24,454 bases of DNA from Patescibacteria group bacterium (GTDB lineage Bacteria > Patescibacteriota > Minisyncoccia > UBA6257 > UBA9933). Shown here in pieces: positions 3,592-20,073 of the stretch (positions are counted from its first letter, which is position 1; each line of letters starts with the position of its first letter). Under the pieces are notes generated by a model, which was given only the letters and a program-made list of their open reading frames with translations, was not told the origin of the DNA and did not search any database. The stretch spans positions 1 through 24,454 of the forward strand of contig JBBUCW010000011.1 of the NCBI GenBank assembly GCA_038057615.1, given 5' to 3'. Position numbers and translations under genes: made by a program.

Positions 3592-4140
3592 ATGAAAGTC
3601 AAATTGATTATCGGCTTGGGCAATCCGGGGAAAGAATACGAAAAAACATACCATAATGTCGGATTTTTGGCCGTTGATTACTTAATTGCTCTGTCATCGC
3701 GAGAGAAGCGAAACAATCCCAAAAAAATAGAAATTGCCACGGTCGCCTATAGCGACCTCGCCATGGCGCCTTTGCTAAAAAGCGACGCCTATATGAATCA
3801 ATCCGGTAATTTTGTAAAAACAGCGCTAAAAAAATACAAAGCCAAACCCGATGAAATTTTAATAGTTCATGATGACTCGGATATTGAACTGGGAAAATAT
3901 AAAATTTCTTTCGGTCGCGGATCGGCCGGGCATAAAGGAGTTCAATCAATAATTGACACAATTAAAACAAAAAATTTCTGGCGATTGCGGATAGGTATCG
4001 GACAAACGACAAATGGCAAACAAACAACAACACGAATAAAAGCCATAGATTTAGTATTAAAAAAAATCAATAAAAATGATTTGATAATTTTTGAAAAAAT
4101 TTTTAAAATAATCCAACGCGAAGCGTTGTTGCAAAACTGA
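3592..4140 (+). CDS. pth: Peptidyl-tRNA hydrolase
   Basis: 'IIGLGNPG', 'HNVGF', 'YMNQSG', 'VHDD', 'GSAGHKG' (canonical GHNG) and 'RLRIGIG'. Confidence 0.95.
   Translation: MKVKLIIGLGNPGKEYEKTYHNVGFLAVDYLIALSSREKRNNPKKIEIATVAYSDLAMAPLLKSDAYMNQSGNFVKTALKKYKAKPDEILIVHDDSDIELGKYKISFGRGSAGHKGVQSIIDTIKTKNFWRLRIGIGQTTNGKQTTTRIKAIDLVLKKINKNDLIIFEKIFKIIQREALLQN
3693..3767. repeat. Degenerate REP/RPE-like palindrome lying in-frame within pth
   Basis: GTCATCGCGAG(3693-3703)...CTCGCCATGGC(3757-3767) are 9/11 complementary. Internal GGTCGC-CTATA-GCGACC and CAAT/ATTG stems. Length 75 bp = 25 codons. Confidence 0.65.
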
Positions 4141-4163
4141 TCTTAGCAACAGCAATAATAACT

Positions 4164-5456
4164 ATGACAAAATTTAAAACAGCAATAATTATTTTTGGAG
4201 ACGCGGCCATATTTTATTTGGCTTTGATTTTAACATTAATTACTCGCTACGGCTTTGATAATTTTGAAAAACCGCTAAGCGCCCATCTTAAGCCATTTTC
4301 ATTAATTCTTGTCGTCTGGCTTCTGATTTTTTACATTGTTGATTTATATAAAAGCCGATATTTAAAAATAAATTTAGAAACAATTAAAAATTTAATTTTA
4401 GCGGTTGCCGTCGGCATCATCGCTTCAATCATTCTTTTTTATCTTTTTCCGTCATTTTTCAAACTAACGCCAAAAACCAATTTAATAATTTTCTCTTTAA
4501 TTTTTGGAACCTTAAATATTATTTTTCGATTTGCCATAATGAAAATTTATATTTCCGGCGGCTTTAAAAATCGCCTGCTTTTTATCGGTAATTCGCCGAT
4601 TATCAATGAAGTTATCAATTATTTAAAAAATAATCCCCAACTCGGCTATGATGTTCTCGCTCAAACCAATGAATATTTAAAAATTGAAAATTATCAAGCC
4701 GACACCATTGTCATTCATCCGCATTTTAAAAAAAATCCGGAGTTTATTAAAACAATTTATCGATTGATTCCTCAAAAAATCGCCGTGATTGATTTAACAG
4801 AATTTTACGAAAATATCTTTCAAAAAATTCCCTTGGAAGAGCTTGAAGATGATTGGTTTATAAAAGAGGTTGTCGTCAATCGCCGAATCTATGATTTTAC
4901 CAAAAGAAGCATTGATATTATTCTATCGTTTATCTTAGGGATAATTTTAATTACGATTGCGGTGTTCATCGCCATTATCACTAAATTAAGTCCCCGTAAG
5001 GGACCAACCATCCTAAAACAGGAAAGAGTCGGCTTGAACAATAAAACCTTTATCCTCTTTAAATTCGGCACCATGAGAGAGGATGTTGGAGCCCTTTGGA
5101 CTGCTCATAAAGATGATAGAATCACTGGCCTCGGAAAATTTTTACGCTATACTCATTTGGATGAAATTCCTCAACTTTGGAATATTTTCATGGGCGATAT
5201 TTCTTTTATCGGACCGCGAGCGGAACGAAAAGAACTAGTTGAACTTTACAATCAGCTTCCTTATTACGAAATCCGTCATATTATCAAGCCCGGTCTAACT
5301 GGCTGGGCGCAAATAAATTATAAACCGAGCGCTTCAATTGAAGAAGCGGCTGAAAAACTAAAATATGACATTTATTATATCAAAAACCGCTCGCTAGTTT
5401 TGGATTTTCTAATTTTACTAAAAACCATTAAATATTTATTTATATCATCAAAATGA
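4164..5456 (+). CDS. Polyprenyl-phosphate glycosyl-1-phosphate transferase (WcaJ/WbaP-like priming sugar transferase)
   Basis: N-terminal TM bundle, central Rossmann-like 'LLFIG' region, C-terminal Bac_transf domain 'KRSIDII...DDRITGLGKFLRYTHLDEIPQLWN...GPRAE...KPGLTGWAQI...YDIYYIKNRSLVLD'. Confidence 0.93.
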   Translation: MTKFKTAIIIFGDAAIFYLALILTLITRYGFDNFEKPLSAHLKPFSLILVVWLLIFYIVDLYKSRYLKINLETIKNLILAVAVGIIASIILFYLFPSFFKLTPKTNLIIFSLIFGTLNIIFRFAIMKIYISGGFKNRLLFIGNSPIINEVINYLKNNPQLGYDVLAQTNEYLKIENYQADTIVIHPHFKKNPEFIKTIYRLIPQKIAVIDLTEFYENIFQKIPLEELEDDWFIKEVVVNRRIYDFTKRSIDIILSFILGIILITIAVFIAIITKLSPRKGPTILKQERVGLNNKTFILFKFGTMREDVGALWTAHKDDRITGLGKFLRYTHLDEIPQLWNIFMGDISFIGPRAERKELVELYNQLPYYEIRHIIKPGLTGWAQINYKPSASIEEAAEKLKYDIYYIKNRSLVLDFLILLKTIKYLFISSK

Positions 5457-10967: not shown

Positions 10968-11747
10968 TTACTTTTTTTCATAAATTTTCGCGTCAATCAA
11001 AAACCGATACCAAAAAGCGTGCAAAAAATGAAATATCAAACCTTCTTTACCGTCTAAAAAGCCCAACCGTAAAAAATAACGATAACAAAAATACGCGTAA
11101 ACGCGGAAAAACATCGGCAGTTTGTAATAAAATTTCTTTTTACTGATTCCAAAATCGCCGACTAAAATCGCCGCCACTTCCCGCGACGCGTAATTATTGT
11201 GCTTTTCAGTCCACCAAGTTAAATCTTTTTTATTATCATCAACAAAATCATTTTCTAATTTTCCGGATTTCCCTTCCAATAAAACGAGATGTTCATCCAT
11301 TTCTCTTTGTTCCGAACGGGCTTTTCCTTTTCTAAATAATCTTAAAAACCAAAACGGATAATAACCGCCGTGTTTTATCCACCGGCCCATAAAATAAACG
11401 CGACGTTTAATGTAAAATCCTGAAATTTCTAATGCGGTTTTTGGTATAACTTCAATAATTTCTTTTTTTAATTCTTCAGTCAAATATTCATCCGCGTCCA
11501 ATCTTAAAATCCACTCGTTTTTTATTTTCAGATTATCCAAAGCCCAGTTAAATTGCCGAGCCTGATTTTCAAATTTATGCTGAAAAATTTTAGCGTCATA
11601 TTTTTTTGCGATTTCCAAAGTTTTATCAGTGGAATAAGAATCAACGATAAAAATTTCATCCGCCCAATCACTGATATTCTTCAACAGCAGTTCAATGTGA
11701 ATTTCTTCGTTGTAGGTTAAAATTATGATTGAAATGGGAATTCTCAT
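10968..11747 (-). CDS. Glycosyltransferase family 2
   Basis: 'ISIIILTYNEE', 'IVDSYSTDKT', DxD in 'LRLDADE', 'LRLFRKG', and 'GFLDGKEG'. Confidence 0.95.
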   Translation of the reverse strand: MRIPISIIILTYNEEIHIELLLKNISDWADEIFIVDSYSTDKTLEIAKKYDAKIFQHKFENQARQFNWALDNLKIKNEWILRLDADEYLTEELKKEIIEVIPKTALEISGFYIKRRVYFMGRWIKHGGYYPFWFLRLFRKGKARSEQREMDEHLVLLEGKSGKLENDFVDDNKKDLTWWTEKHNNYASREVAAILVGDFGISKKKFYYKLPMFFRVYAYFCYRYFLRLGFLDGKEGLIFHFLHAFWYRFLIDAKIYEKK

Positions 11748-12796
11748 ATAAAATAATTTTCAACGGCAAATTTATATTGCTGAATAAATAATTCTTTAAA
11801 AAATCTAACATTATTTTGTTCGTAAAAAAGTATGATCGCTTTTTTGTAATCCGCCTCGTCAATGCTTCTGTATGAAAGCGGACAAACATTATGCGCCAAA
11901 AAAATAGCGTCCCCGATAAGCCGCGCCGTTCTTTTATTCCCGTCTTCAAACGGCTGAATATAAGATATCAATAATACCGCGGCCAGCGCTTTGAAAAAAG
12001 GATTTTTCTCTTTATTAATCAAATTCGCCATATTTTCCATCGCCTCGCGCAATTGATATTCATTATCTAACGGCCTGTATTTTGTCCCGACAACGCCAAC
12101 CGCTTTTTTTCTTATGCCATAAAAAACATTCAATCCTTCAACCAATAATCTATGAATGTCGTTAATTTTTCTAATCGTCATTTTTTTAAAATCTTTTTTA
12201 TTGGCAAAAATATAATCCAGCGCTTTTTTATGATTTAAAATCATTATTGCTTCTTCTTTTTTGTGACCTTTCGCTTCTTTGTTTTCTTTAATAAGAATTT
12301 CCGTGTCTATAAGCGAATATGTGTTGCCTTCTATTTGTGAAGATTTCCAACTTAATTCAATTGTCAGCCGCTCAAACTCTTTCTTTAAAATCGCCGGCGG
12401 AATTTTTTTAATATTAACTCCATATTTTTTATTTAATCTTTCTAAATCAATTAATTCACTTTTGCTGAAAATATTTCTAAAATTATTAAAAATATCAAAA
12501 TTAAATCTTTCAAATATGCCTTTTCGTTCATCCGGACCTTTTTGAAAATATTCATCAACATCAATATATTGAAGTAATTTATTTTCAACTGATTCCTGAT
12601 AAAAAATTCCGCGGCCTTTGCCGATTTTTTTAATCAATTTTTTCCGCTTCAAAACATTAATATCTCTGACGATGGTAACTCTGGAAATTTCGCCGAATAA
12701 CTCTTCTAAATGCTTTTTAATTTCTTTATTGCCGGCTTTTCCGCTTTTTCTGATAAATTCAAGAATTTTTAATTGCCGACTGGTTAATTTATCCAT
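11744..12796 (-). CDS. Fic family protein with N-terminal winged HTH
   Basis: N-terminal 'RQLKILEFIRK...SRVTIVRDINVLKRKKLI...GKGRGIFY', inhibitory-type motif 'SSQIEGN', and Fic motif 'IQPFEDGNKRTAR'. Confidence 0.92.
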   Translation of the reverse strand: MDKLTSRQLKILEFIRKSGKAGNKEIKKHLEELFGEISRVTIVRDINVLKRKKLIKKIGKGRGIFYQESVENKLLQYIDVDEYFQKGPDERKGIFERFNFDIFNNFRNIFSKSELIDLERLNKKYGVNIKKIPPAILKKEFERLTIELSWKSSQIEGNTYSLIDTEILIKENKEAKGHKKEEAIMILNHKKALDYIFANKKDFKKMTIRKINDIHRLLVEGLNVFYGIRKKAVGVVGTKYRPLDNEYQLREAMENMANLINKEKNPFFKALAAVLLISYIQPFEDGNKRTARLIGDAIFLAHNVCPLSYRSIDEADYKKAIILFYEQNNVRFFKELFIQQYKFAVENYFI

Positions 12797-12804
12797 CTTT
12801 TAAG

Positions 12805-12837
12805 ATTGTATCATTATTTACCGTTAATTGTATCATT
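12805..12837 (-). promoter_or_regulatory. Tandem 11-bp direct repeats (AATGATACAAT) with 22-bp period upstream of the Fic gene; candidate operator/promoter
   Basis: ATTGTATCATT at 12805-12815 and 12827-12837. The proximal copy ends in TACAAT (-10-like), 8 nt before the ATG. Confidence 0.55.
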
Positions 12838-12955
12838 TTGAAACGATAAAAGCAACGTTTTCCTCGCTAACTAAATCACCAATGTTTTTCAACAGCCGTT
12901 CAATGTGAATTTCTTCGTTGTAGGTAAGAATTATGATACTAAGAGGAATTTTCAT
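12833..12955 (-). pseudogene. Truncated 5' copy of the GT2 gene (40 aa, not in the ORF track)
   Basis: Translates as MKIPLSIIILTYNEEIHIERLLKNIGDLVSEENVAFIVSK*, versus MRIPISIIILTYNEEIHIELLLKNISDWADEIFIVDS in the intact GT2. Confidence 0.9.
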
Positions 12956-12978
12956 TTTAATACCTAATTTTTCAATTT

Positions 12979-12993
12979 AAAGCGGTCCGCTTT
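12979..12993. other. GC-rich palindrome AAAGCGG-T-CCGCTTT downstream of the LamG/SLT gene (possible terminator or binding site)
   Basis: Perfect 7-bp arms around a single central base. Confidence 0.35.
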
Positions 12994-13005
12994 TGCCTCC
13001 ATAAT

Positions 13006-15759
13006 TTATCTCAACGAAATAATAGCCGTGTAAAACTTGCCGTCGTTGAGAACGACTCTGAACTGCCAACTTCCGACAGATAAATTATCAGTGGCCAAAT
13101 TATAAACATATTGATTATTTTCCGAATCGTATCGGAACGTATTTCCCGCATCCGCCGCTGATGTTGAAAAAGCTATTTCATCCGTACCAACAACGCCATC
13201 AGAAATTTTAGCCAAATAAAGATAAGCTGTAGCCGTTGATATATAATTGTTATTGATATCGGTTAATTGAAACTTAATCGGCAAAGTTATCCTTAATTTA
13301 TAAATACCGGAACCATCGGCTTTAATCGGAGACAAAAAACCGCCAAATCTGTAAGCGGTATTAAAATAAATAATTTTGGTTGAAATATTCCCATCATAAT
13401 CTACGGCGGTAATTTTAAGAACATTTAAGCCGAGTTTGGTTAAAACAACAATTTGCCCGTTATTCACTACAACATCATTTAATAACGCTTCCACGCCGGC
13501 TATGCCGGAAATTTTATCCGTCGCGCTAAATTGAATTTGTAATTGAGAATTAAGCAAATATTCACCCGCGATCGGCGATACGTTTATCTGCGGCGGCTCA
13601 ATATCGTGCAATTCCGCATCGGAATCAATTGTTTGGTCTATTACGCCGTCTCCTTCGTAATCTATGTTTAATTTTACGCCCCTTTCGCCCCTGTTAAGCG
13701 CGTCCCAATCAATCCGGTATTGATGAATTTCTCCTTCCGTAATGGGTAAATTAATGGCGCTGAATCCGGAAAAAATTCCGTGTTGCGCATTAACAATATC
13801 CAAACCGTATTTCCCGCTGGCGGTTCCAATAATACTATAAACATAAGAATCGTTTTGGAAAAATATCACCGCTCCTTTCACATTTGCGTCATAAACGGAA
13901 AAAGGAATTTCTTCTTTTACGAGATTATCAAAAACGCCTGTTTTTCGTCCTTGAGAATCAGTGATTTGCAATTCTCCTGGGCTGTTTAATTTCACAAGGA
14001 TTTTATTATTATTCACTGTTTTCAACTTACGGCTTAATGTTTCTATGGCGATTTTATTGGCGTCATTGATAATTCCGACAAAATAATTATTTAAATAACT
14101 TAATCTAATAGCCACACCACCTAAATAATCGCCGTATAAACCTTTTTCATTTTTAACAATGCCGTTATAACCCCACACTATAAGCGATGTTTTAATGTCA
14201 GCACAAGTTAAATTAACACCGTCTATTGTTAACGGACAAGAAGTAATAATTCGCGGATTAGCCATCAATCTTAATGCTTGGTCGTATTTATTTTGTAAAA
14301 CTCTGAATCCGTCTTTTATGTTCGCGTATATTCCCTGCAAAGCGTTAGAATAATATTTACTGAATCTGCCAACCCATTCTTCTCCTTTACAATCATCGCG
14401 TTTGGAATTTATATCTAATCCGCTTCCCAATCCTTTGGAATTCGGCGACGTGATTTGCATAATTCCAATTCCGCCGTCAAAAGCGCCGGCGCAAATTTCA
14501 TTGTTAAATTCAGGCCCGGATTCTTCGGCTCCAACGGCTAAAATAAGCTCTTTTGGAAATTCCGAATCTATGATAAATTTTTGAAAATTATTCTTATTAT
14601 CCCTGCCTCCGCCTCCATCATAAAGAGAATTTTCAGAATTATTTTTTGCGTAATAATTATTTACCGCGTCCAAAATAACTGGTTTTCTTTTATCAGCCGT
14701 ATCTAATTGCGTTTCCGCTTTATTTTGTAAATCGCTTTGATTATTCGGATTGTAATCTAAATATATTGTTCCGTTTGTTAAATTTTTTGCCGCCATCCAA
14801 CCAATAACTCCGTCAATTTTGTCTTCAACTTGATACCAACGATAACCGTCTATATCTATATTATTGCCGTTATCGTCAATGATTTTTATAACTTTGAGCG
14901 CCCAACCATTGGGAAGAGTTTTTAATAAAATACCGGAAACGCCGGCGCTTTGACGAAAATTCAATCTGGCAGATTGAATTTCAGACCAAAATTGCGTTGG
15001 CTGATTTGCCAAAGCATAATTTAAAGCTATTTCTTCGGCCGAACGAGCGATATTGGAAATACGAATTTCGTCGATTAATCCCCGCATTCTTTGAGAGCTT
15101 TGATAACCTCCTCCAAAAAGATGATGATTGATATATAAAGAATGTGTATCGGTAAATGTTAAATTAGGATGATAATTCGTTGATTCTAAAACACCATTAA
15201 CATAAATCTTAGAATAAACGCCGTCATAAGTAGAAACTACGTAATACCATTGATTTGGTTCATGCCAAATTCCGCTAAAACTTACTTGATTAAAACTACT
15301 TGCGCCAGCGCAAGAACCATCTTGGTTGCGTGCGATTCGTAAATTATACCCGTTGATATAGCCATAATTACTATCCACTCCCTTAGAAATTATATCCTCG
15401 GCATTTGCCCAACAACTTAAATCAAACCCCGTTGGATAAACCCATGCCTCAATAGTTAATTGAGAAAAATTTCTTAAAGAAGGATTGTCTGGCACGATAA
15501 TATAATCTGTTTGGCCGTTAAAATATCTAGCTTTACCGAATTTGCCGTCAATAATAGCTGTGCCGATAGCAGTGCCATTATTTATTCCAGTTTCATCAAT
15601 TATTGTATTGCCGGAAACATCATTGAATCTCCACAAAGCAACTGTGTTAGTATCGACGCTAAATAAATTTTGAGGAATTGCAACTTGAGCGTTAACAAAA
15701 TTAAAATAAACAGAATTTAATAATAAAATAACAAAAACAAATACTGATTTTTTAAACAT
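13006..15759 (-). CDS. Exported multidomain protein: signal peptide, LamG-like lectin, SH3b-like, lytic transglycosylase (SLT)-like, Ig-like, PxKF domain
   Basis: Signal 'MFKKSVFVFVILLLNSVYFNFVNAQ'. LamG aa ~38-250 ('ALWRFND', 'TIEAWVYP', 'WYYVVSTYDG', 'YVNG', 'GLIDEIRISN'). SH3b aa ~258-326 ('LNFRQSAG', 'DGYRWYQV', 'GWMAA'). SLT aa ~400-560 ('LAVGAEES', 'GIMQI', 'GYNG'). C-terminal 'FGGFLSPI...LPIKFQLTD'. Confidence 0.8.
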   Translation of the reverse strand: MFKKSVFVFVILLLNSVYFNFVNAQVAIPQNLFSVDTNTVALWRFNDVSGNTIIDETGINNGTAIGTAIIDGKFGKARYFNGQTDYIIVPDNPSLRNFSQLTIEAWVYPTGFDLSCWANAEDIISKGVDSNYGYINGYNLRIARNQDGSCAGASSFNQVSFSGIWHEPNQWYYVVSTYDGVYSKIYVNGVLESTNYHPNLTFTDTHSLYINHHLFGGGYQSSQRMRGLIDEIRISNIARSAEEIALNYALANQPTQFWSEIQSARLNFRQSAGVSGILLKTLPNGWALKVIKIIDDNGNNIDIDGYRWYQVEDKIDGVIGWMAAKNLTNGTIYLDYNPNNQSDLQNKAETQLDTADKRKPVILDAVNNYYAKNNSENSLYDGGGGRDNKNNFQKFIIDSEFPKELILAVGAEESGPEFNNEICAGAFDGGIGIMQITSPNSKGLGSGLDINSKRDDCKGEEWVGRFSKYYSNALQGIYANIKDGFRVLQNKYDQALRLMANPRIITSCPLTIDGVNLTCADIKTSLIVWGYNGIVKNEKGLYGDYLGGVAIRLSYLNNYFVGIINDANKIAIETLSRKLKTVNNNKILVKLNSPGELQITDSQGRKTGVFDNLVKEEIPFSVYDANVKGAVIFFQNDSYVYSIIGTASGKYGLDIVNAQHGIFSGFSAINLPITEGEIHQYRIDWDALNRGERGVKLNIDYEGDGVIDQTIDSDAELHDIEPPQINVSPIAGEYLLNSQLQIQFSATDKISGIAGVEALLNDVVVNNGQIVVLTKLGLNVLKITAVDYDGNISTKIIYFNTAYRFGGFLSPIKADGSGIYKLRITLPIKFQLTDINNNYISTATAYLYLAKISDGVVGTDEIAFSTSAADAGNTFRYDSENNQYVYNLATDNLSVGSWQFRVVLNDGKFYTAIISLR

Positions 15760-15791
15760 AATTTTTATATTTTTACTTATATTTCGGCTTT

Positions 15792-16442
15792 TTATAATTT
15801 TTTATTTTTAGCGCAAATTATTAAGTGAGCGCCTAATGACGGGAAAACATCTCCCAAAATCTCAAAAATTCTACCCAATTTATTTCTGCGAGTTGAAAAC
15901 AATAAATGAGAAGATATTGTTTCCAAAATTTCAAATCCTTTTTCTTTAATTAAATTTTCAGCAATCTTTTTATTATAAATATGATAATGATACGGGGCAA
16001 AAGCAAATAAAGGCATTTTACCGAAAAACATCAATAATCTATTGGCAACAAAAACTAAATTCGGCACTGTAATTATTAAAATTCCGCCTTGTTTTAGCGA
16101 ATTTTTTGCATTTTCCATGAATTTTAAATCATCAAACAAATGTTCAACTACTTCACCGGCAAATATCACGTCAAATTTTACTCCAAAATCCGGAATTCCA
16201 TCATTGAGATCCACTTGCTTTATATTTACGCCGTCAAGATGGCGCGGATTTACATCTACCCCAAAACAATTAACGCCTTCATTTTTTAATAAATCAACGA
16301 CTCCGCCCTTAGCAATGCCGCACTCTAAAATATTTAATCCTTCTATCTTTTCAAAATATCGCCGAATCAAACGAACGGCTTTTTTAATTCTTATCGGGTC
16401 CGGCACATCAAAATTTTCAAAAACTTGTTGTTTTATATCCAT
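15792..16442 (-). CDS. Class I SAM-dependent methyltransferase
   Basis: Motif I 'ILECGIAKG', 'GVDVN', 'FDVIFAGEVVEHL', and 'LKQGGILIITVPN'. Confidence 0.92.
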   Translation of the reverse strand: MDIKQQVFENFDVPDPIRIKKAVRLIRRYFEKIEGLNILECGIAKGGVVDLLKNEGVNCFGVDVNPRHLDGVNIKQVDLNDGIPDFGVKFDVIFAGEVVEHLFDDLKFMENAKNSLKQGGILIITVPNLVFVANRLLMFFGKMPLFAFAPYHYHIYNKKIAENLIKEKGFEILETISSHLLFSTRRNKLGRIFEILGDVFPSLGAHLIICAKNKKL

Positions 16443-16448
16443 ATAATA

Positions 16449-16454
16449 ATTATA
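16449..16454 (-). promoter_or_regulatory. Putative -10 box (TATAAT) 6 nt before the methyltransferase ATG (possible leaderless transcript)
   Basis: Minus strand reads TATAAT-TATTAT-ATG. Confidence 0.35.
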
Positions 16455-16575
16455 ATTTAATTTCTCTTTTTGTAAAATAGTATGATATAAATTTTTTTAA
16501 CTTAAGCCATTTAATCTCAAAATCGCTTAAATAATTATCTTGTCCTTCCCAATATTTTTCGTAAAATTTAGGCAT
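16450..16575 (-). pseudogene. 41-aa 5' relic, probably of another methyltransferase gene
   Basis: MPKFYEKYWEGQDNYLSDFEIKWLKLKKFISYYFTKREIKL*. Its ATG overlaps the stop of the GT4 relic (AATGCCTAA), like a genuine operon junction. The family assignment is from pattern recall only. Confidence 0.5.
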
Positions 16576-16768
16576 TTTTGATTATTTTATTATATTCCTT
16601 TGTCCATTTCTCCGCCACTTTATCGCAGGAAAATTCTTTTTCAACCAATTTACGGCCGTTTTCGCCCATTTTTTTCGCCAAATCCGGATTATTTAAAATC
16701 TTCAAAATGGCTTCGGTTAATTGTTTTTCGTCTTTTTCTATTACGATGCCGGCGCCGACCTTTTCAAT
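16568..16768 (-). pseudogene. 3' relic of a GT4 gene (66 codons, no start)
   Basis: IEKVGAGIVIEKDEKQLTEAILKILNNPDLAKKMGENGRKLVEKEFSCDKVAEKWTKEYNKIIKNA* aligns with the C-terminus of 17467-18654. There is an in-frame TAA immediately upstream. Confidence 0.9.
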
Positions 16769-17555
16769 TTAACTAATAATTTTTATTTCTTTTTTTAATT
16801 ATTTTAGTTATCCAATCATTAAATAAGTCGCAATTCTGAATAATACAATGTCCGCCAATTTTACCGAACATCACTTTCAAAACTGGTCTTATTACATTAT
16901 TTTTACCAAGTTTTTTATAACCTTCATTATAGTCGTTATTGGCAATTGTATAAACCTCATCAAAATTCAATTTCATTTTATCGCAAATTCTTTTAACCTC
17001 TTTTACAAAAATAATATTCCAACCATAATAAGTAGTGTCTAAAATTTTTAATAATTCTGTCGTTTCCGATTTTGCAAAACATTGAGTTTTTATACCAATA
17101 TCAGAAAAAATCTTTGCCGCTTCTTTCGCCTTTTTACCCCCAAAATATTTTATAAAAGTTTTAATACCTTTTTCCAAATTAGGATGAAGCCCGCGAATCG
17201 GACTATGCACGGCCGATGTTAAAATTTTATTTGTCATACCAACAGAAATAGTTGAATGAATAATCACTAATTTAGGCTGATATTTTTCAATATAATCCTT
17301 AGTAATTTTTATAAAATTTTTTGTATTTGGATAACAAATATGAACAATATCAAATTTTCCATCTAAATCATTGTTTTTATCGCGTAAAAAAATATTATAA
17401 TATGGCTTAAAAACATTAAATAAAGATCGACCAACTTCTCCGGCTCCAATAACTAAATGTTTTTTATTATTTTTCATAATTTTGTAATATTTTATTATAT
17501 TCCTCTATCCATTTCTCCGCCACTTTTTCGCTGGAAAATTCTTTTTCAACCAATT
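16584..17555. repeat. 67-bp near-identical direct repeats (16584-16650 and 17489-17555) bracketing the dehydrogenase gene
   Basis: 63/67 identical by manual alignment, offset 905 bp. Confidence 0.85.
16773..17477 (-). CDS. Short nucleotide-sugar dehydrogenase (UDP-Glc/GDP-Man dehydrogenase superfamily, WecC-like motif), lacking the C-terminal domain
   Basis: 'VIGAGEVG', 'HSTI', 'HSPIRG', 'TELLKILDTTYYGWNI', and catalytic 'IGGHCI' (Cys211). Only 234 aa. Confidence 0.8.
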   Translation of the reverse strand: MKNNKKHLVIGAGEVGRSLFNVFKPYYNIFLRDKNNDLDGKFDIVHICYPNTKNFIKITKDYIEKYQPKLVIIHSTISVGMTNKILTSAVHSPIRGLHPNLEKGIKTFIKYFGGKKAKEAAKIFSDIGIKTQCFAKSETTELLKILDTTYYGWNIIFVKEVKRICDKMKLNFDEVYTIANNDYNEGYKKLGKNNVIRPVLKVMFGKIGGHCIIQNCDLFNDWITKIIKKRNKNY

Positions 17556-18654
17556 CGCGACCTCGTCTGCCCATTTCAGCAGCAATTTGGGGATTTTCCA
17601 AAAATTTTAAAATCGCATCCGCAATTTGACTAACATCTTTTTCAACAACTAGACCGGCGCCAGCCGCTTCAACTTCTTTTGAAATACCAACTCCTTTTGT
17701 AACCACGACGGGCTTTCCCACAATCATCGCCTCAACAACCGCCATTCCGAAATTTTCCGAATAGGACGACAAAACAAAAATATCACTTTCGCGATAAGCC
17801 GCGATTTTATCTTCGCCCAAAATCATTCCCACAAAAATTACATCTTTACCAATTTTTAATTTGTAATTTGTAATTTGTAATTTAATCTTTTCTCCGTATC
17901 CGTCATCATCCGGTCCAGCTAAAACTAAAATTGCTTTTGGCTCTTTTTTAATCACTTCGGCAAATGCCGGAATTAAAGTATCTAATCCTTTTATTTTATG
18001 TAACCGTCCCATAAAAAGAACAACTAATCTATCCTTAGAAATTCCAAATTTTTCTCTAAAATTATTTATAGGATCTATATTAATATAATTGCTAAAATCA
18101 ATGCCATTTGGAATAATAATAGTCTTCTTTAAAGGTATATTTAATTTCAAATAATCATTTTTTTCTTTTTCAACCGTAAAATGGATTGCCTCGGCTCCGG
18201 CTAAATTTCTTTTTTCAATTAAAGAAATATAAATTTTCTTTTTTAAAGGATAATATTTAAGTGGTTCTTCCATAAAACTTCCCCGCGGCGAAATAATATA
18301 TGGTTTTTTAAATTTTTTAGCATAATAAGCGCCTAAGGTGGACGCGGCCAAAAAAACAGAAGTGATATGAATTAAATCGAAATCTTTTATATTTTTTGCT
18401 AAAATGCGATGAAACGCAAAAGAATATTTCCATGGTCGAAAACTAATTGGAAAATAAAAAACTTTAACGCCGTCAATATTAACGGCTTCGCCAAGCGAAA
18501 CATTTAAATTGTCTAAACCGTCAATATTTGTAGTATAAACAGCAACATCAGCGCCATTTTTAACTAACCACTTATTTAATTCGTGAACGCTTTTAATCGG
18601 CCCGCCATAGCGAATAGCCGGAAAATAAGCCGGAACAATATGAAGAATTTTCAT
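17467..18654 (-). CDS. Glycosyltransferase family 4
   Basis: 'ILHIVPAYFPAIRYGGP', 'SPRG', 'IPNGID', 'FMGRLHKIKGLD', and 'SYSENFGMAVVEAM'. Confidence 0.95.
   Translation of the reverse strand: MKILHIVPAYFPAIRYGGPIKSVHELNKWLVKNGADVAVYTTNIDGLDNLNVSLGEAVNIDGVKVFYFPISFRPWKYSFAFHRILAKNIKDFDLIHITSVFLAASTLGAYYAKKFKKPYIISPRGSFMEEPLKYYPLKKKIYISLIEKRNLAGAEAIHFTVEKEKNDYLKLNIPLKKTIIIPNGIDFSNYINIDPINNFREKFGISKDRLVVLFMGRLHKIKGLDTLIPAFAEVIKKEPKAILVLAGPDDDGYGEKIKLQITNYKLKIGKDVIFVGMILGEDKIAAYRESDIFVLSSYSENFGMAVVEAMIVGKPVVVTKGVGISKEVEAAGAGLVVEKDVSQIADAILKFLENPQIAAEMGRRGRELVEKEFSSEKVAEKWIEEYNKILQNYEK
17857..17883. repeat. Tandem heptamer (TAATTTG)x3 plus TAATTT inside the GT4 CDS
   Basis: Read directly from the sequence; encodes KLQITNYKL on the minus strand. 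Confidence 0.8.
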
Positions 18655-20073
18655 TTATTTTAAATTTTGTCTCATCTCTCTTCCGTATTTATCATTAATT
18701 CTTACAATGTCGTCTTCTCCTAAATAATCGCCGCTTTGTATTTCAATTATTTCAAGTGGCTCGTTGCCAAAATTTTCCAATTGATGCTTAGCGCCGACTG
18801 GTATATCAATGCTCTGATGGCAATTTAAATAAAATTCTTTTCCTTCTAATAATATTTTAGCTATTCCTTTAAGCACAACCCAATGTTCCGATCTTTTATT
18901 ATGATACTGCAAACTTAATTTTTCTTTCGGATTAACATAAATTTTTTTAACCTTAAAATTATCTCTTTCTTCTATAACTGTAAAAAAACCCCATGGACGA
19001 TAAACAGTCGGATGTCCAAAATATTGCGGCAGGCTATTAGCTTTTATTCTTTCTAAAAGACCTTTTATTTCATGGCTTTTTTCCCTATGAGCGACAAAAA
19101 CAGCATCTTCCGTATCAACCACTATTAAATCTTCCAAACCAATTGCCGCAACAATTCTTTTTTTCGTTCCGTATATTAAACATTTTCGGCAATTTTCGCC
19201 AAAAACATTTTCTCCTATCACATTTTTTTCAAAATCTTTAGGAAGTAATTGATAAAGAGACTTCCAAGTGCCAACATCTTGCCATTTAAAATCAGCTGAA
19301 ATCAATCTAATTTTTTTATTTTTTTCCAAAACGCCGCGATCAACAGAAATTGGAGAAATTAATTCATAAAGATGCGGCGACTCCAGCGCTTGATAAATTT
19401 TTGGAAGTGATTTTTTAATTTCTTTAAGAAAAACTTCCGCTTTCCAAACAAATATTCCGCTATTCCAAAGATACCCTTCTTTTAAAAATTGTTCTGCTCT
19501 TTGCTTATCGGGTTTTTCAATAAATTTTTCGACTCCATAATCAAAAACTGATGCTTGTTTTTTCGCCTTCTCTTTTATTTTAATATAGCCATACTCTGTG
19601 CTTGGATTAGTCGGCTTTATCCCAAATATTACTAAAAAATTATTATTAGCTGATTTTAATGATTTTTTTATGGTTTCGCCAAATTTATAGTCTGGTTTTA
19701 TTAAGTGATCGGCCGGGCAAACAACTATAATCGCTTTTTTATCTTTTTTAAAAATATATTTAGACGCCAAAGCAATCGCCGGCGCCGTATTTTTTTGAGC
19801 CGGCTCTATTATTAAATTTTCTTTATTTAAGCCAAAATCTTTTAATTGGATATAAACATCATCAGCTAAAGATCCGTCAAGCACAATATAAATTTTTAGA
19901 GGATCTATTATTTTTTTAAGACGCAAAAAAGTCTGTTGAATTAATGTTTTATTCCCAAAAATCTTGAGTAATTGCTTTGGATAAGATTTGCGGCTGATTG
20001 GCCAAAGCCGCGTTCCTGAACCGCCGCTTAAAATTACGCCATATAAATTTTGCGCTATTTTTTTTTGTTTCAT
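18655..20073 (-). CDS. manC: Mannose-1-phosphate guanylyltransferase / mannose-6-phosphate isomerase
   Basis: 'ILSGGSGTRLWPISRKSYPKQLL', 'NTAPAI', 'PADH', 'WNSGIF', 'WQDVGTW', and C-terminal cupin 'RPWG...LSLQYHNKRSEHWVV'. Confidence 0.95.
   Translation of the reverse strand: MKQKKIAQNLYGVILSGGSGTRLWPISRKSYPKQLLKIFGNKTLIQQTFLRLKKIIDPLKIYIVLDGSLADDVYIQLKDFGLNKENLIIEPAQKNTAPAIALASKYIFKKDKKAIIVVCPADHLIKPDYKFGETIKKSLKSANNNFLVIFGIKPTNPSTEYGYIKIKEKAKKQASVFDYGVEKFIEKPDKQRAEQFLKEGYLWNSGIFVWKAEVFLKEIKKSLPKIYQALESPHLYELISPISVDRGVLEKNKKIRLISADFKWQDVGTWKSLYQLLPKDFEKNVIGENVFGENCRKCLIYGTKKRIVAAIGLEDLIVVDTEDAVFVAHREKSHEIKGLLERIKANSLPQYFGHPTVYRPWGFFTVIEERDNFKVKKIYVNPKEKLSLQYHNKRSEHWVVLKGIAKILLEGKEFYLNCHQSIDIPVGAKHQLENFGNEPLEIIEIQSGDYLGEDDIVRINDKYGREMRQNLK

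What the first reader, a model, noticed from the sequence alone, without database searches (positions are those of the whole stretch)
11690..17555. Candidate system: recombinase-free cassette shuffling of a surface-glycan locus using glycosyltransferase gene ends as anchors
Within 6 kb there are two independent cargo genes each flanked by direct repeats derived from the adjacent GT gene, plus further relics (16450-16575, 12964-13005). In each case an intact GT reading frame is preserved. Inference: conserved GT motif-coding DNA ('TYNEEIHIE', 'LVEKEFS..KVAEKW') acts as a reusable landing pad. The locus could then accumulate or swap accessory genes (Fic, dehydrogenase, methyltransferase, cell-wall enzyme) through RecA/competence without losing function. 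This would be an integron-like outcome with no integrase or attC sites.
Basis: inference. Interest (0 to 1): 0.8.

Follow-up and report, generated by a model that had tools for sequence, protein, structure and literature searches.

The report
Recombination scars in a glycan locus
The duplicated glycosyltransferase gene ends are real, but they are scars of ordinary homology-anchored plus illegitimate recombination that added a selfish Fic gene and a block from a neighbouring organism to a surface-sugar locus of a tiny groundwater bacterium; they are not a dedicated cassette-shuffling system.

Summary
The repeats exist and are far beyond chance. The locus carries three scars.

1. A 1.2-kb wHTH-Fic cassette sits between a 5' stub of the GT2 gene and an intact GT2. 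The same stub-Fic-GT2 module is in the sister species. In another genus the same stub and GT2 enclose a different toxin-antitoxin pair (MNT-HEPN). Homologous Fic cassettes elsewhere in the class are flanked by 36-81-nt duplicated ends of unrelated genes, such as a metG-like gene. Some MNT-HEPN cassettes are too (comM-like gene). This matches "insertion with long target duplication", described for restriction-modification genes.

2. The GT4 3' stub is not a copy of the adjacent GT4. It is about 95% identical to the GT4 of a co-occurring organism and runs straight into a methyltransferase 5' stub. It marks the left edge of a block joined behind the dehydrogenase gene at an 8-12-nt microhomology. 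The dehydrogenase came in alongside an intact GT4 and is not a bracketed cassette of its own.

3. One methyltransferase replaced another and left a 5' stub.

recA, comEC and dprA are present. No recombinase lies in the window. No shared core or glycosyltransferase specificity was found.

The parts
10968..11747 (-). Intact family-2 glycosyltransferase (GT2, 259 aa). Its first ~27 codons (11666-11752) are the downstream copy of the direct repeat.
   Evidence: Pfam PF00535. Orthologues at 56-83% identity lie next to GT4 or DH in relatives. Repeat D2.
11744..12873 (-). wHTH-Fic cassette. The ORF is 11744-12796 (350 aa). The Fic motif reads QPFEDGNKR, with Gln in place of the catalytic His. An upstream region of ~77 nt holds a palindromic operator-like site (12827-12847) and a second half-site (12805-12815). 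The stop codon overlaps the GT2 ATG.
   Evidence: Pfam Fic 48.9 bits and wHTH hits. PADLOC SoFic and PDC-S04. Alignment to FICD. The operator pair and Q-motif are conserved in homologues. Distribution is patchy: 17/301 and 50/401 genomes.
12874..12960 (-). GT2 5' stub (relic 1), the upstream copy of the direct repeat. The ATG is at 12953-12955. A 40-codon ORF ends in the operator region at 12833-12835.
   Evidence: The same stub lies upstream of Fic in G001 and upstream of MNT-HEPN in G055, where the first 56 nt are identical.
12896..15050 (-). Tract 99-100% identical to genus-g47 genome G055 and to an abundant co-occurring organism. It spans the LamG 3' two-thirds, the spacer and the first ~20 codons of the stub, and it ends where the cargo differs.
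   Evidence: Identity profile. blastn 92% over 12896-15800. Contigs and a loose end at 12896 in runs X6 and X9.
12969..12980 (-). 12-mer copy 2, 13 nt upstream of the stub's ATG.
   Evidence: Only two copies exist in the 395-kb genome. Also present at this place in G055.
13006..15759 (-). Exported LamG/SH3/PxKF protein (917 aa). It is part of the G055-like block.
   Evidence: Pfam and NCBIfam. 90% aa identity to the 925-aa G055 protein.
15792..16442 (-). Methyltransferase MTa (216 aa), which replaced MTb. Its leader and first 13 codons (16404-16457) occur as a stub upstream of MTb in G001, G052 and G005.
16487..16575 (-). MTb 5' stub (relic 3), ~30 codons. The ATG is at 16573-16575 and overlaps the end of the GT4 stub by 8 nt (ATGCCTAA).
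   Evidence: 75-79% identical to the N-termini of the MTb proteins of G001, G003 and G055. No similarity to MTa.
16568..16768 (-). GT4' 3' stub (relic 2): 66 in-frame codons plus its own stop. It is contiguous with the MTb stub, as in the GT4-MTb junctions of G055 and G003.
16761..16772 (-). 12-mer copy 1, directly behind the dehydrogenase stop codon. Its last 8 nt double as GT4' codons (Ile-Glu-Lys). This is the inferred microhomology junction.
16773..17477 (-). Short nucleotide-sugar-dehydrogenase-like gene (DH, 234 aa). GT4-DH and DH-GT2 adjacencies recur in relatives.
   Evidence: Pfam and NCBIfam. GT4-DH-GT2 in G006. DH-GT2 in G005 and G046. DH-stub-Fic-GT2 in G001.
17467..18654 (-). Intact family-4 glycosyltransferase GT4a (395 aa). 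Its 3' end (17456-17675) is the partner of relic 2.
   Evidence: Pfam. Orthologues at 52-72% identity in 13 other genera.

Best explanation
The window is a Wzx/Wzy-type surface-polysaccharide locus of a groundwater Patescibacteria (CPR) genome. It has been rebuilt repeatedly by recombination with DNA of relatives. The gene-end stubs are the scars.

(a) A selfish, self-regulated wHTH-Fic cassette entered at the 5' end of GT2. It left about 82-87 nt of GT2 duplicated, so a dead stub lies upstream and an intact GT2 lies downstream. This happened before G000 and G001 split. The same site later exchanged cargo (MNT-HEPN in G055).

(b) A G055-like haplotype (GT4'-MTb-LamG-stub-cargo-GT2) and a G006/G001-like haplotype (GT4-DH-GT2) were joined. 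The join lies between the DNA just behind the DH stop and codon ~326 of GT4', at an 8-12-nt microhomology. This left the GT4' 3' stub still fused to the start of MTb.

(c) MTa displaced MTb and left a 30-codon stub.

Inferred mechanism: DNA taken up from relatives (comEC, dprA and recA are present) integrates with one end anchored by RecA in a conserved coding region. The other end is joined illegitimately. This is either homology-facilitated illegitimate recombination or a single crossover of a circularised fragment. In these gene-dense genomes only products that keep one intact gene copy survive, so duplications end at gene starts or stops.

Shown: the anatomy, the origin of each stub, the cargo differences, the recurrence at other genes, and the recent inter-genus tract. 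Inferred: the route of entry and the order of events.
For: - Repeats are significant.
- The GT4 stub is closer to foreign GT4 alleles than to its neighbour and runs straight into an MTb 5' stub.
- G055 carries the intact GT4'-MTb-LamG-stub arrangement.
- The 12-mer is found only at the two block edges.
- G001 has the same stub-Fic-GT2 module. G006 shows DH-GT2 with no insert.
- Fic-family cassettes elsewhere carry adjacent direct repeats of 36-81 nt made of local gene ends. Counted as independent events this is 7 of 35 loci, against 0 of 172 other G000 genes (Fisher p=2e-6).
- One case is an 81-nt, 100% identical duplication of the first 26 codons of a metG-like gene. Empty sites exist in two related genera.
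- MNT-HEPN cassettes show the same pattern at GT2 and at a comM-like 3' end.
- Repeat edges coincide with start or stop codons while the leaders differ, as expected for homology anchoring.
- A 99-100% identical tract ends inside the stub.
- recA, comEC and dprA are present, and the window has no recombinase.
- Literature: long target duplications around RM genes, mostly in competent species (PMC2853133). Duplications of 109-950 bp from a single crossover of circularised one-sided-homology DNA (PMC3240628). Stubs and orphans left by sequential displacement via HFIR (PMC5361080). Natural competence in Patescibacteria (PMC10633639).
Against: - The parental haplotypes are inferred from other genera, not observed. 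No contig joining DH directly to the stub was seen in the runs laid.
- The anchor implied for some events is short (tens of nt). That is short compared with HFIR anchors as I recall them from the literature.
- Most Fic loci (about 28 of 35) show no repeat.
- Three repeats (L079, L082, L083) may be dispersed REP-like elements, and L060 is ambiguous.
- The control genes come from one genome only.
- Competence of this organism is untested, and the genome is only 75% complete.
Confidence: 0.68

Rival explanations
1. First reader's model. Conserved glycosyltransferase motif DNA is a dedicated, reusable landing pad, and the locus works as an integron-like platform for accessory genes without an integrase.
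For: The same stub-GT2 pair holds Fic or MNT-HEPN, and a TA pair sits upstream of GT2 in G010. The GT4-GT2 interval is variable across the family. Abundant co-occurring relatives share these gene-end segments at about 90% identity.
Against: The targets of the same cassettes elsewhere are metG-like, comM-like and other genes. The junctions share no core. The GT4 core is ordinary orthologue conservation. The GT4 stub lies on the illegitimate side of a junction, not on the anchor side. Stub lengths differ between events.
Confidence: 0.1
2. The wHTH-Fic cassette is an autonomous mobile element. Its own protein, or a partner acting in trans, makes widely staggered cuts and so creates true long target-site duplications.
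For: It is a single-gene unit of constant architecture, found in many families and often at contig ends. A conserved palindromic site lies at its left end. One repeat is a perfect 81 nt.
Against: The unrelated MNT-HEPN cassettes show the same repeats. There are no terminal inverted repeats and no conserved right end. Repeat lengths vary from 36 to 87 nt, and the repeat edges sit at start or stop codons next to unlike leaders. The palindrome is more simply an autoregulatory operator.
Confidence: 0.07
3. The stubs are local tandem-duplication scars of the neighbouring genes that have since decayed. No foreign DNA was involved.
For: The stubs lie next to homologous intact genes, and identity is 71-84%.
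Against: The GT4 stub is about 95% identical to the G055 allele but only 61% identical (non-core part) to its neighbour. It is fused to a methyltransferase 5' end that has no full-length copy in the window. The Fic family is absent from the other genera of this family that were searched.
Confidence: 0.05
4. The contig is an assembly chimera of two co-occurring organisms that share the 2.2-kb identical tract.
For: A G055-like organism is 4-15 times more abundant than G000 in runs X6 and X9 and shares the tract.
Against: Run X8 shows no variant letters. Its contigs match G000 with 0 differences at even depth, and they span Fic-stub-LamG (12549-13155) and MTa-stubs-DH (15591-17600). In X6 the G000-specific contigs on both sides have the same depth of 10-16.
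Confidence: 0.03

Closest known systems
Insertion with long target duplication (Nobusato et al. 2000, recalled; Furuta, Abe & Kobayashi 2010, PMC2853133)
   Same: A selfish gene unit with no mobility gene is flanked by direct repeats longer than 30 bp. The repeats are single-copy in empty-site genomes, vary in length between events, and share no core. The cases are mostly in naturally competent bacteria.
   Different: Here the cargo is a wHTH-Fic gene or an MNT-HEPN pair rather than restriction-modification genes. The hosts are Patescibacteria. One edge of each repeat sits at a start or stop codon, so an intact gene is always kept.
Homology-facilitated illegitimate recombination, and single crossover of circularised one-sided-homology DNA (references given in PMC5361080; PMC3240628)
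   Same: There is one homologous anchor plus one microhomology joint (8-12 nt behind the DH stop). Foreign DNA is gained and the resident gene is truncated. Part of the anchor is duplicated.
   Different: This is inferred from comparative anatomy only. The implied anchors are short, and uptake and RecA dependence are untested in this organism.
Sequential displacement in T6SS effector-immunity arrays and Rhs/CDI orphan arrays (PMC5361080)
   Same: Incoming modules displace residents and leave orphaned gene pieces. A conserved gene part acts as the anchor, and no integrase is involved.
   Different: There the arrays hold immunity genes or toxin tips, and the leftovers can be functional. Here the stubs are short and lie in a biosynthetic locus.
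Mosaic capsule and O-antigen loci with gene remnants (own knowledge, not checked here)
   Same: Wzx/Wzy loci vary in gene content between conserved genes through recombination, and gene fragments lie at the junctions.
   Different: Toxin-antitoxin or defence-like cassettes are embedded inside the operon, and exchange occurs between genera.
Integrons, and integrative elements that rebuild a gene end (own knowledge)
   Same: Cassette-like cargo sits at a fixed site, and a gene end is duplicated so that the target stays intact.
   Different: No integrase, attC-like site or common core was found. The targets differ from genome to genome.

Membership tests
Insertion with long target duplication | The inserted unit carries no transposase or integrase. 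| tested here: met
   The cassette holds only the wHTH-Fic ORF and its upstream region. No recombinase lies in the window.
Insertion with long target duplication | Flanking direct repeats longer than 30 bp that are single-copy at the empty site of a related genome. | tested here: met
   G068: an 81-nt perfect repeat, with a single copy in G176 and G191. G001 has the stub whereas G006 has DH-GT2 with no insert. The comparisons are between genera, not strains.
Insertion with long target duplication | Repeat length and sequence vary between events, with no shared att core. | tested here: met
   Repeats of 36, 44, 47, 76, 81 and 82 nt come from different genes. The junctions share no motif.
Homology-facilitated illegitimate recombination | An illegitimate joint at a short microhomology, with truncation of the resident gene. 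| tested here: inconclusive
   The 12-mer occurs only at the two block edges. Eight of its nt double as GT4' codons, and the GT4' gene is cut at codon ~326. The parental sequences are inferred, not observed.
Homology-facilitated illegitimate recombination | Natural transformation and RecA dependence. | not testable with these tools
   recA, comEC and dprA are present. Competence has been shown only for Saccharibacteria (PMC10633639).
Integron-like cassette platform | An integrase next to the array and attC-type sites at the cassette ends. | tested here: not met
   No integrase lies in the window. The single tyrosine recombinase found is on another contig. No conserved inverted repeat occurs at the cassette 3' ends.
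IS/transposon | A transposase gene and terminal inverted repeats. | tested here: not met
Fic/DOC family (the cargo protein) | Fic fold recognised by the family profile. | tested here: met
   PF02661 at 48.9 bits against a cut-off of 24. Aligns to FICD structures, E=3e-9.
Fic/DOC family (the cargo protein) | Catalytic motif HxFx(D/E)GN(G/K)R with the histidine present. | tested here: not met
   The motif reads QPFEDGNKR here. The Gln is present in all 12 homologues inspected (one reads QPFDDGNKR).
Wzx/Wzy-dependent polysaccharide locus | An initiating sugar transferase, a flippase, a polymerase-like protein, glycosyltransferases and sugar-nucleotide enzymes. | tested here: met
   Bac_transf, two Polysacc_synt flippases, GT2 and GT4 genes, ManC and a 2-epimerase. 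The O-antigen-polymerase hit is weak (23.4 bits, just under the 24.2 cut-off).

The most novel reading that the evidence does not exclude
Patescibacteria may have a general, integrase-free way of docking selfish defence or toxin-antitoxin cassettes at the ends of conserved genes, run either by the host or by the cassettes themselves. The duplicated gene end would then serve as portable homology that lets different cassettes replace one another and cross genus boundaries. That would amount to a distributed, recombinase-less cassette platform.
Probability: 0.1. Interest if true: 0.8.

Novelty: new member of a known kind. Interest (0 to 1): 0.45.

Why it matters
Little is known about how the tiny, gene-dense genomes of Patescibacteria gain genes. 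These data show three things. First, selfish Fic and MNT-HEPN cassettes enter at gene ends in a way that leaves the target gene intact. Second, a surface-glycan locus exchanges multi-kb tracts between co-occurring genera (99-100% identity). Third, the scars can be read to reconstruct the events. This extends a phenomenon described for restriction-modification genes in competent bacteria to other selfish genes and to an uncultivated phylum. It also yields a prediction that can be tested in the transformable Saccharibacteria models. It does not reveal a new kind of genetic system.

Tried and rejected
- Gene conversion as the source of the GT4 core. Rejected: the same 81 nt are 83-89% identical between orthologues of different genera.
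- Extending the GT2 stub to the 'FIV' codons. Rejected: that stretch is the cassette's conserved palindromic operator, which is also present in genomes where the target is another gene.
- The methyltransferase stub as a frameshifted N-terminus of MTa. Rejected: it is in a different frame and belongs to a different family.
- Pattern scans of species genomes and JGI metagenomes for the GT2 core gave 3 and 5 loci. None showed a further stub-cargo module.
- The genome-wide self-scan for gene fragments was dominated by dispersed REP/MITE-like repeats. Few true stubs lie outside this contig (C15:9139-9276, C2:4075-4134).
- An empty site for the G287 event was not clearly recovered.
- A crossover between G055-like and G001-like sequence inside the stub could not be shown. 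Identity to G001 is about 80% versus 86% on its two halves (by eye).
- A literature search for long target duplications around toxin-antitoxin genes found nothing specific. Prudhomme 2002 is not held in the library.

Full report
LAYOUT. The window is the whole contig C11 of a 395-kb, 75%-complete genome. All relevant genes are on the minus strand. In transcription order they are:
- flippase, ManC, GT4a (17467-18654), a short dehydrogenase-like gene DH (16773-17477);
- a gene-free 330 nt;
- methyltransferase MTa (15792-16442), a 917-aa LamG/SH3/PxKF protein (13006-15759);
- a gene-free 209 nt;
- a wHTH-Fic gene (11744-12796), GT2 (10968-11747), then further sugar genes.
Together with an initiating transferase, two flippases and a weak polymerase-like hit, this is a Wzx/Wzy-type glycan locus. 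It contains no recombinase.

OBSERVATION. Both repeat pairs are real.
- GT2 pair: 87 nt at 83% identity (11666-11752 vs 12874-12960).
- GT4 pair: 220 nt at 71% identity (16551-16770 vs 17456-17675). E-values are 4e-22 and 1e-38 pairwise, and 8e-28 against the whole genome.
- Among 174 genes of this genome tested the same way, only Fic and DH have strong repeats adjacent on both sides.
- The GT2 stub starts with its own ATG and reads as a 40-codon ORF.
- The GT4 stub is 66 in-frame codons with its own stop. An ATG overlapping that stop by 8 nt opens a further stub of about 30 codons.
- Logan contigs from an independent sample reproduce the stub regions without a single difference.

THE GT4 STUB IS FOREIGN, AND DH IS NOT A BRACKETED CASSETTE.
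- The stub peptide is 62% identical to the adjacent GT4a but 74-79% identical to the GT4 of G006, G013, G005 and G010.
- At the DNA level its first 114 nt are 61% identical to GT4a and 77-82% identical to those genera.
The same stretch is 83-89% identical between GT4a and the orthologues of G003, G005 and G006. It is therefore ordinary conservation.
- The following stub matches the N-terminus of a methyltransferase family (MTb) that is not MTa.
- G055 (another genus) has the intact arrangement: GT4'-MTb-LamG(925 aa)-GT2 stub-cargo-GT2. G000's GT4 stub is about 95% identical to the 3' end of that GT4'.
- GT4-DH-GT2 occurs in G006. DH-GT2 occurs in G005 and G046. DH-stub-Fic-GT2 occurs in the sister species G001.
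- The 12-mer directly behind the DH stop (16761-16772) occurs only once more in the genome, 13 nt upstream of the GT2 stub's ATG. That copy is also present in G055. Its last 8 nt are at the same time the first codons of the GT4' stub.

I read this as one illegitimate joint at a microhomology between a GT4-DH-leader fragment and a G055-like backbone. That is the pattern expected from homology-facilitated illegitimate recombination. Separately, MTa replaced MTb codons 31 to the end. Conversely, G001, G052 and G005 keep the MTa leader plus 13 codons as a stub in front of MTb.

THE FIC CASSETTE.
- G001 has the same GT2 stub, the same operator-like repeats and a 78%-identical Fic gene in front of GT2. 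The event therefore predates the split of the two species.
- The protein has a wHTH N-terminus and a Fic domain. In its motif the catalytic His is Gln (QPFEDGNKR), and the Gln is present in all 12 homologues inspected. It matches PADLOC SoFic and PDC-S04.
- The family is patchy: 17 of 301 genomes of the order and 50 of 401 of the class. Within this family it was found only in this genus. It often lies at contig ends.
- A palindromic site and a second half-site precede the ATG in most of the loci inspected.
- Many distant cassettes are flanked by direct repeats made of the end of whatever gene lies next to them:
  - 81 nt at 100% identity, the first 26 codons of a metG-like gene (G068);
  - 76 nt at 95%, the last codons of the upstream gene (G287);
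  - 44 nt starting at the ATG of the downstream gene (G515);
  - 36 nt at the 3' end of a convergent gene (G524);
  - 47 nt of uncertain nature (G095).
- Counted as independent events this is 7 of 35 loci, against 0 of 172 other G000 genes (p=2e-6). Caveat: the controls come from one genome.
- For G068, two related genera show the empty site with a single copy.
- The junctions share no motif and the cassette has no terminal repeats.

NOT FIC-SPECIFIC, NOT GT-SPECIFIC.
- In G055 the same GT2 stub and GT2 enclose an MNT nucleotidyltransferase plus a HEPN protein (Pfam, NCBIfam MntA, PADLOC PDC-M05A/B). The first 56 nt of the stub are identical to G000's.
- A distant MNT-HEPN pair in G552 is flanked by a 91-nt repeat of the 3' end of a comM-like gene.
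- G010 has an RHH-RelE-like pair between GT4 and GT2.
- The phenomenon therefore belongs to small selfish cassettes in these genomes in general. The GT2 upstream site has been used repeatedly.

RECENT EXCHANGE.
- G000 and G055 are 66-85% identical over the other shared genes of the locus.
- They are 99-100% identical from about 15050 to 12896. The tract ends in the stub exactly where the cargo differs.
- In two groundwater runs a G055-like organism, 4-15 times more abundant than G000, carries this tract. It continues beyond 12896 with the G055-type sequence.
- This is direct evidence that homologous recombination between genera runs up to the stub.

MECHANISM.
- In the 5' cases the repeat begins at or within 3 nt of the start codon. 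In the 3' cases it ends at the stop codon. In G068 the two copies are identical but are preceded by unlike leaders. A staggered cut would not respect ORF borders.
- Anchoring in sequence that donor and recipient share (coding DNA), with the other edge set by the end of the incoming fragment, would respect them.
- Experiments in E. coli gave duplications of 109-950 bp of the homologous segment by a single crossover of a circularised one-sided-homology molecule (PMC3240628).
- HFIR explains joints such as the one behind DH (references in PMC5361080).
- The overall picture equals 'insertion with long target duplication' of restriction-modification genes, found mostly in competent species (PMC2853133).
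- G000 has recA, comEC, dprA and a single tyrosine recombinase on another contig. Competence is documented for Saccharibacteria (PMC10633639).

VERDICT. It is wrong in treating the two cases as equivalent, in deriving the GT4 stub from its neighbour, and in proposing a glycosyltransferase-specific landing-pad system. I file this as a new member of known recombination outcomes and rate its interest as moderate.

Noticed in passing
window 11744-12796; loci L053-L091: The wHTH-Fic family has Gln in place of the catalytic His (QPFEDGNKR) in all 12 homologues inspected. In most loci a palindrome plus a half-site precede the ATG. This suggests a self-regulated protein whose chemistry may differ from AMPylating Fic enzymes.
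   Followed up: partly
window 12896-15050 vs L037 (G055): A 2.2-kb tract is 99-100% identical between genomes of different genera whose other shared genes are 66-85% identical. The partner organism is 4-15 times more abundant than G000 in the same groundwater samples.
   Followed up: partly
window 16404-16457; L031:6661-6714; L038:9135-9185; L021:8770-8834: Reciprocal stubs. The MTa leader plus 13 codons survive in front of MTb in three genomes, while G000 keeps an MTb stub in front of MTa.
   Followed up: partly
L036 (G022) about 4129-4642: The GT4 orthologue is gutted. Only about 63 N-terminal and 44 C-terminal codons remain, roughly 100 nt apart.
   Followed up: no
L031:2788-2865 and 14874-15002; L021:18227-18640 and 19689-19799: Further gene-end fragments lie in the glycan loci of G001 and G005 (a GT2 3' end and 3' ends of other genes).
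   Followed up: no
G000 contigs C4, C5, C6, C23, C25, C28, C30 and others: Dispersed repeat elements of about 50-170 nt read as protein both inside and outside ORFs. They dominate any self-similarity scan of the intergenic DNA.
   Followed up: no
L061 (G068 contig C6 end) and G068:C18:1341-1467: The contig with the perfect 81-nt duplication ends in a 127-nt overlap with the contig that continues the metG-like gene. This fork in the assembly could reflect coexisting occupied and empty alleles.
   Followed up: no
L024:9077-9567 (G010): An RHH antitoxin-like gene and a RelE/YafQ-like toxin gene lie between GT4 and GT2. This is a third kind of toxin-antitoxin cargo upstream of GT2.
   Followed up: partly
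window 15958-16485 in run X6: One low-depth contig (depth 7) skips this stretch, with 6 other letters in between. It may be a variant or another organism's methyltransferase gene.
   Followed up: no
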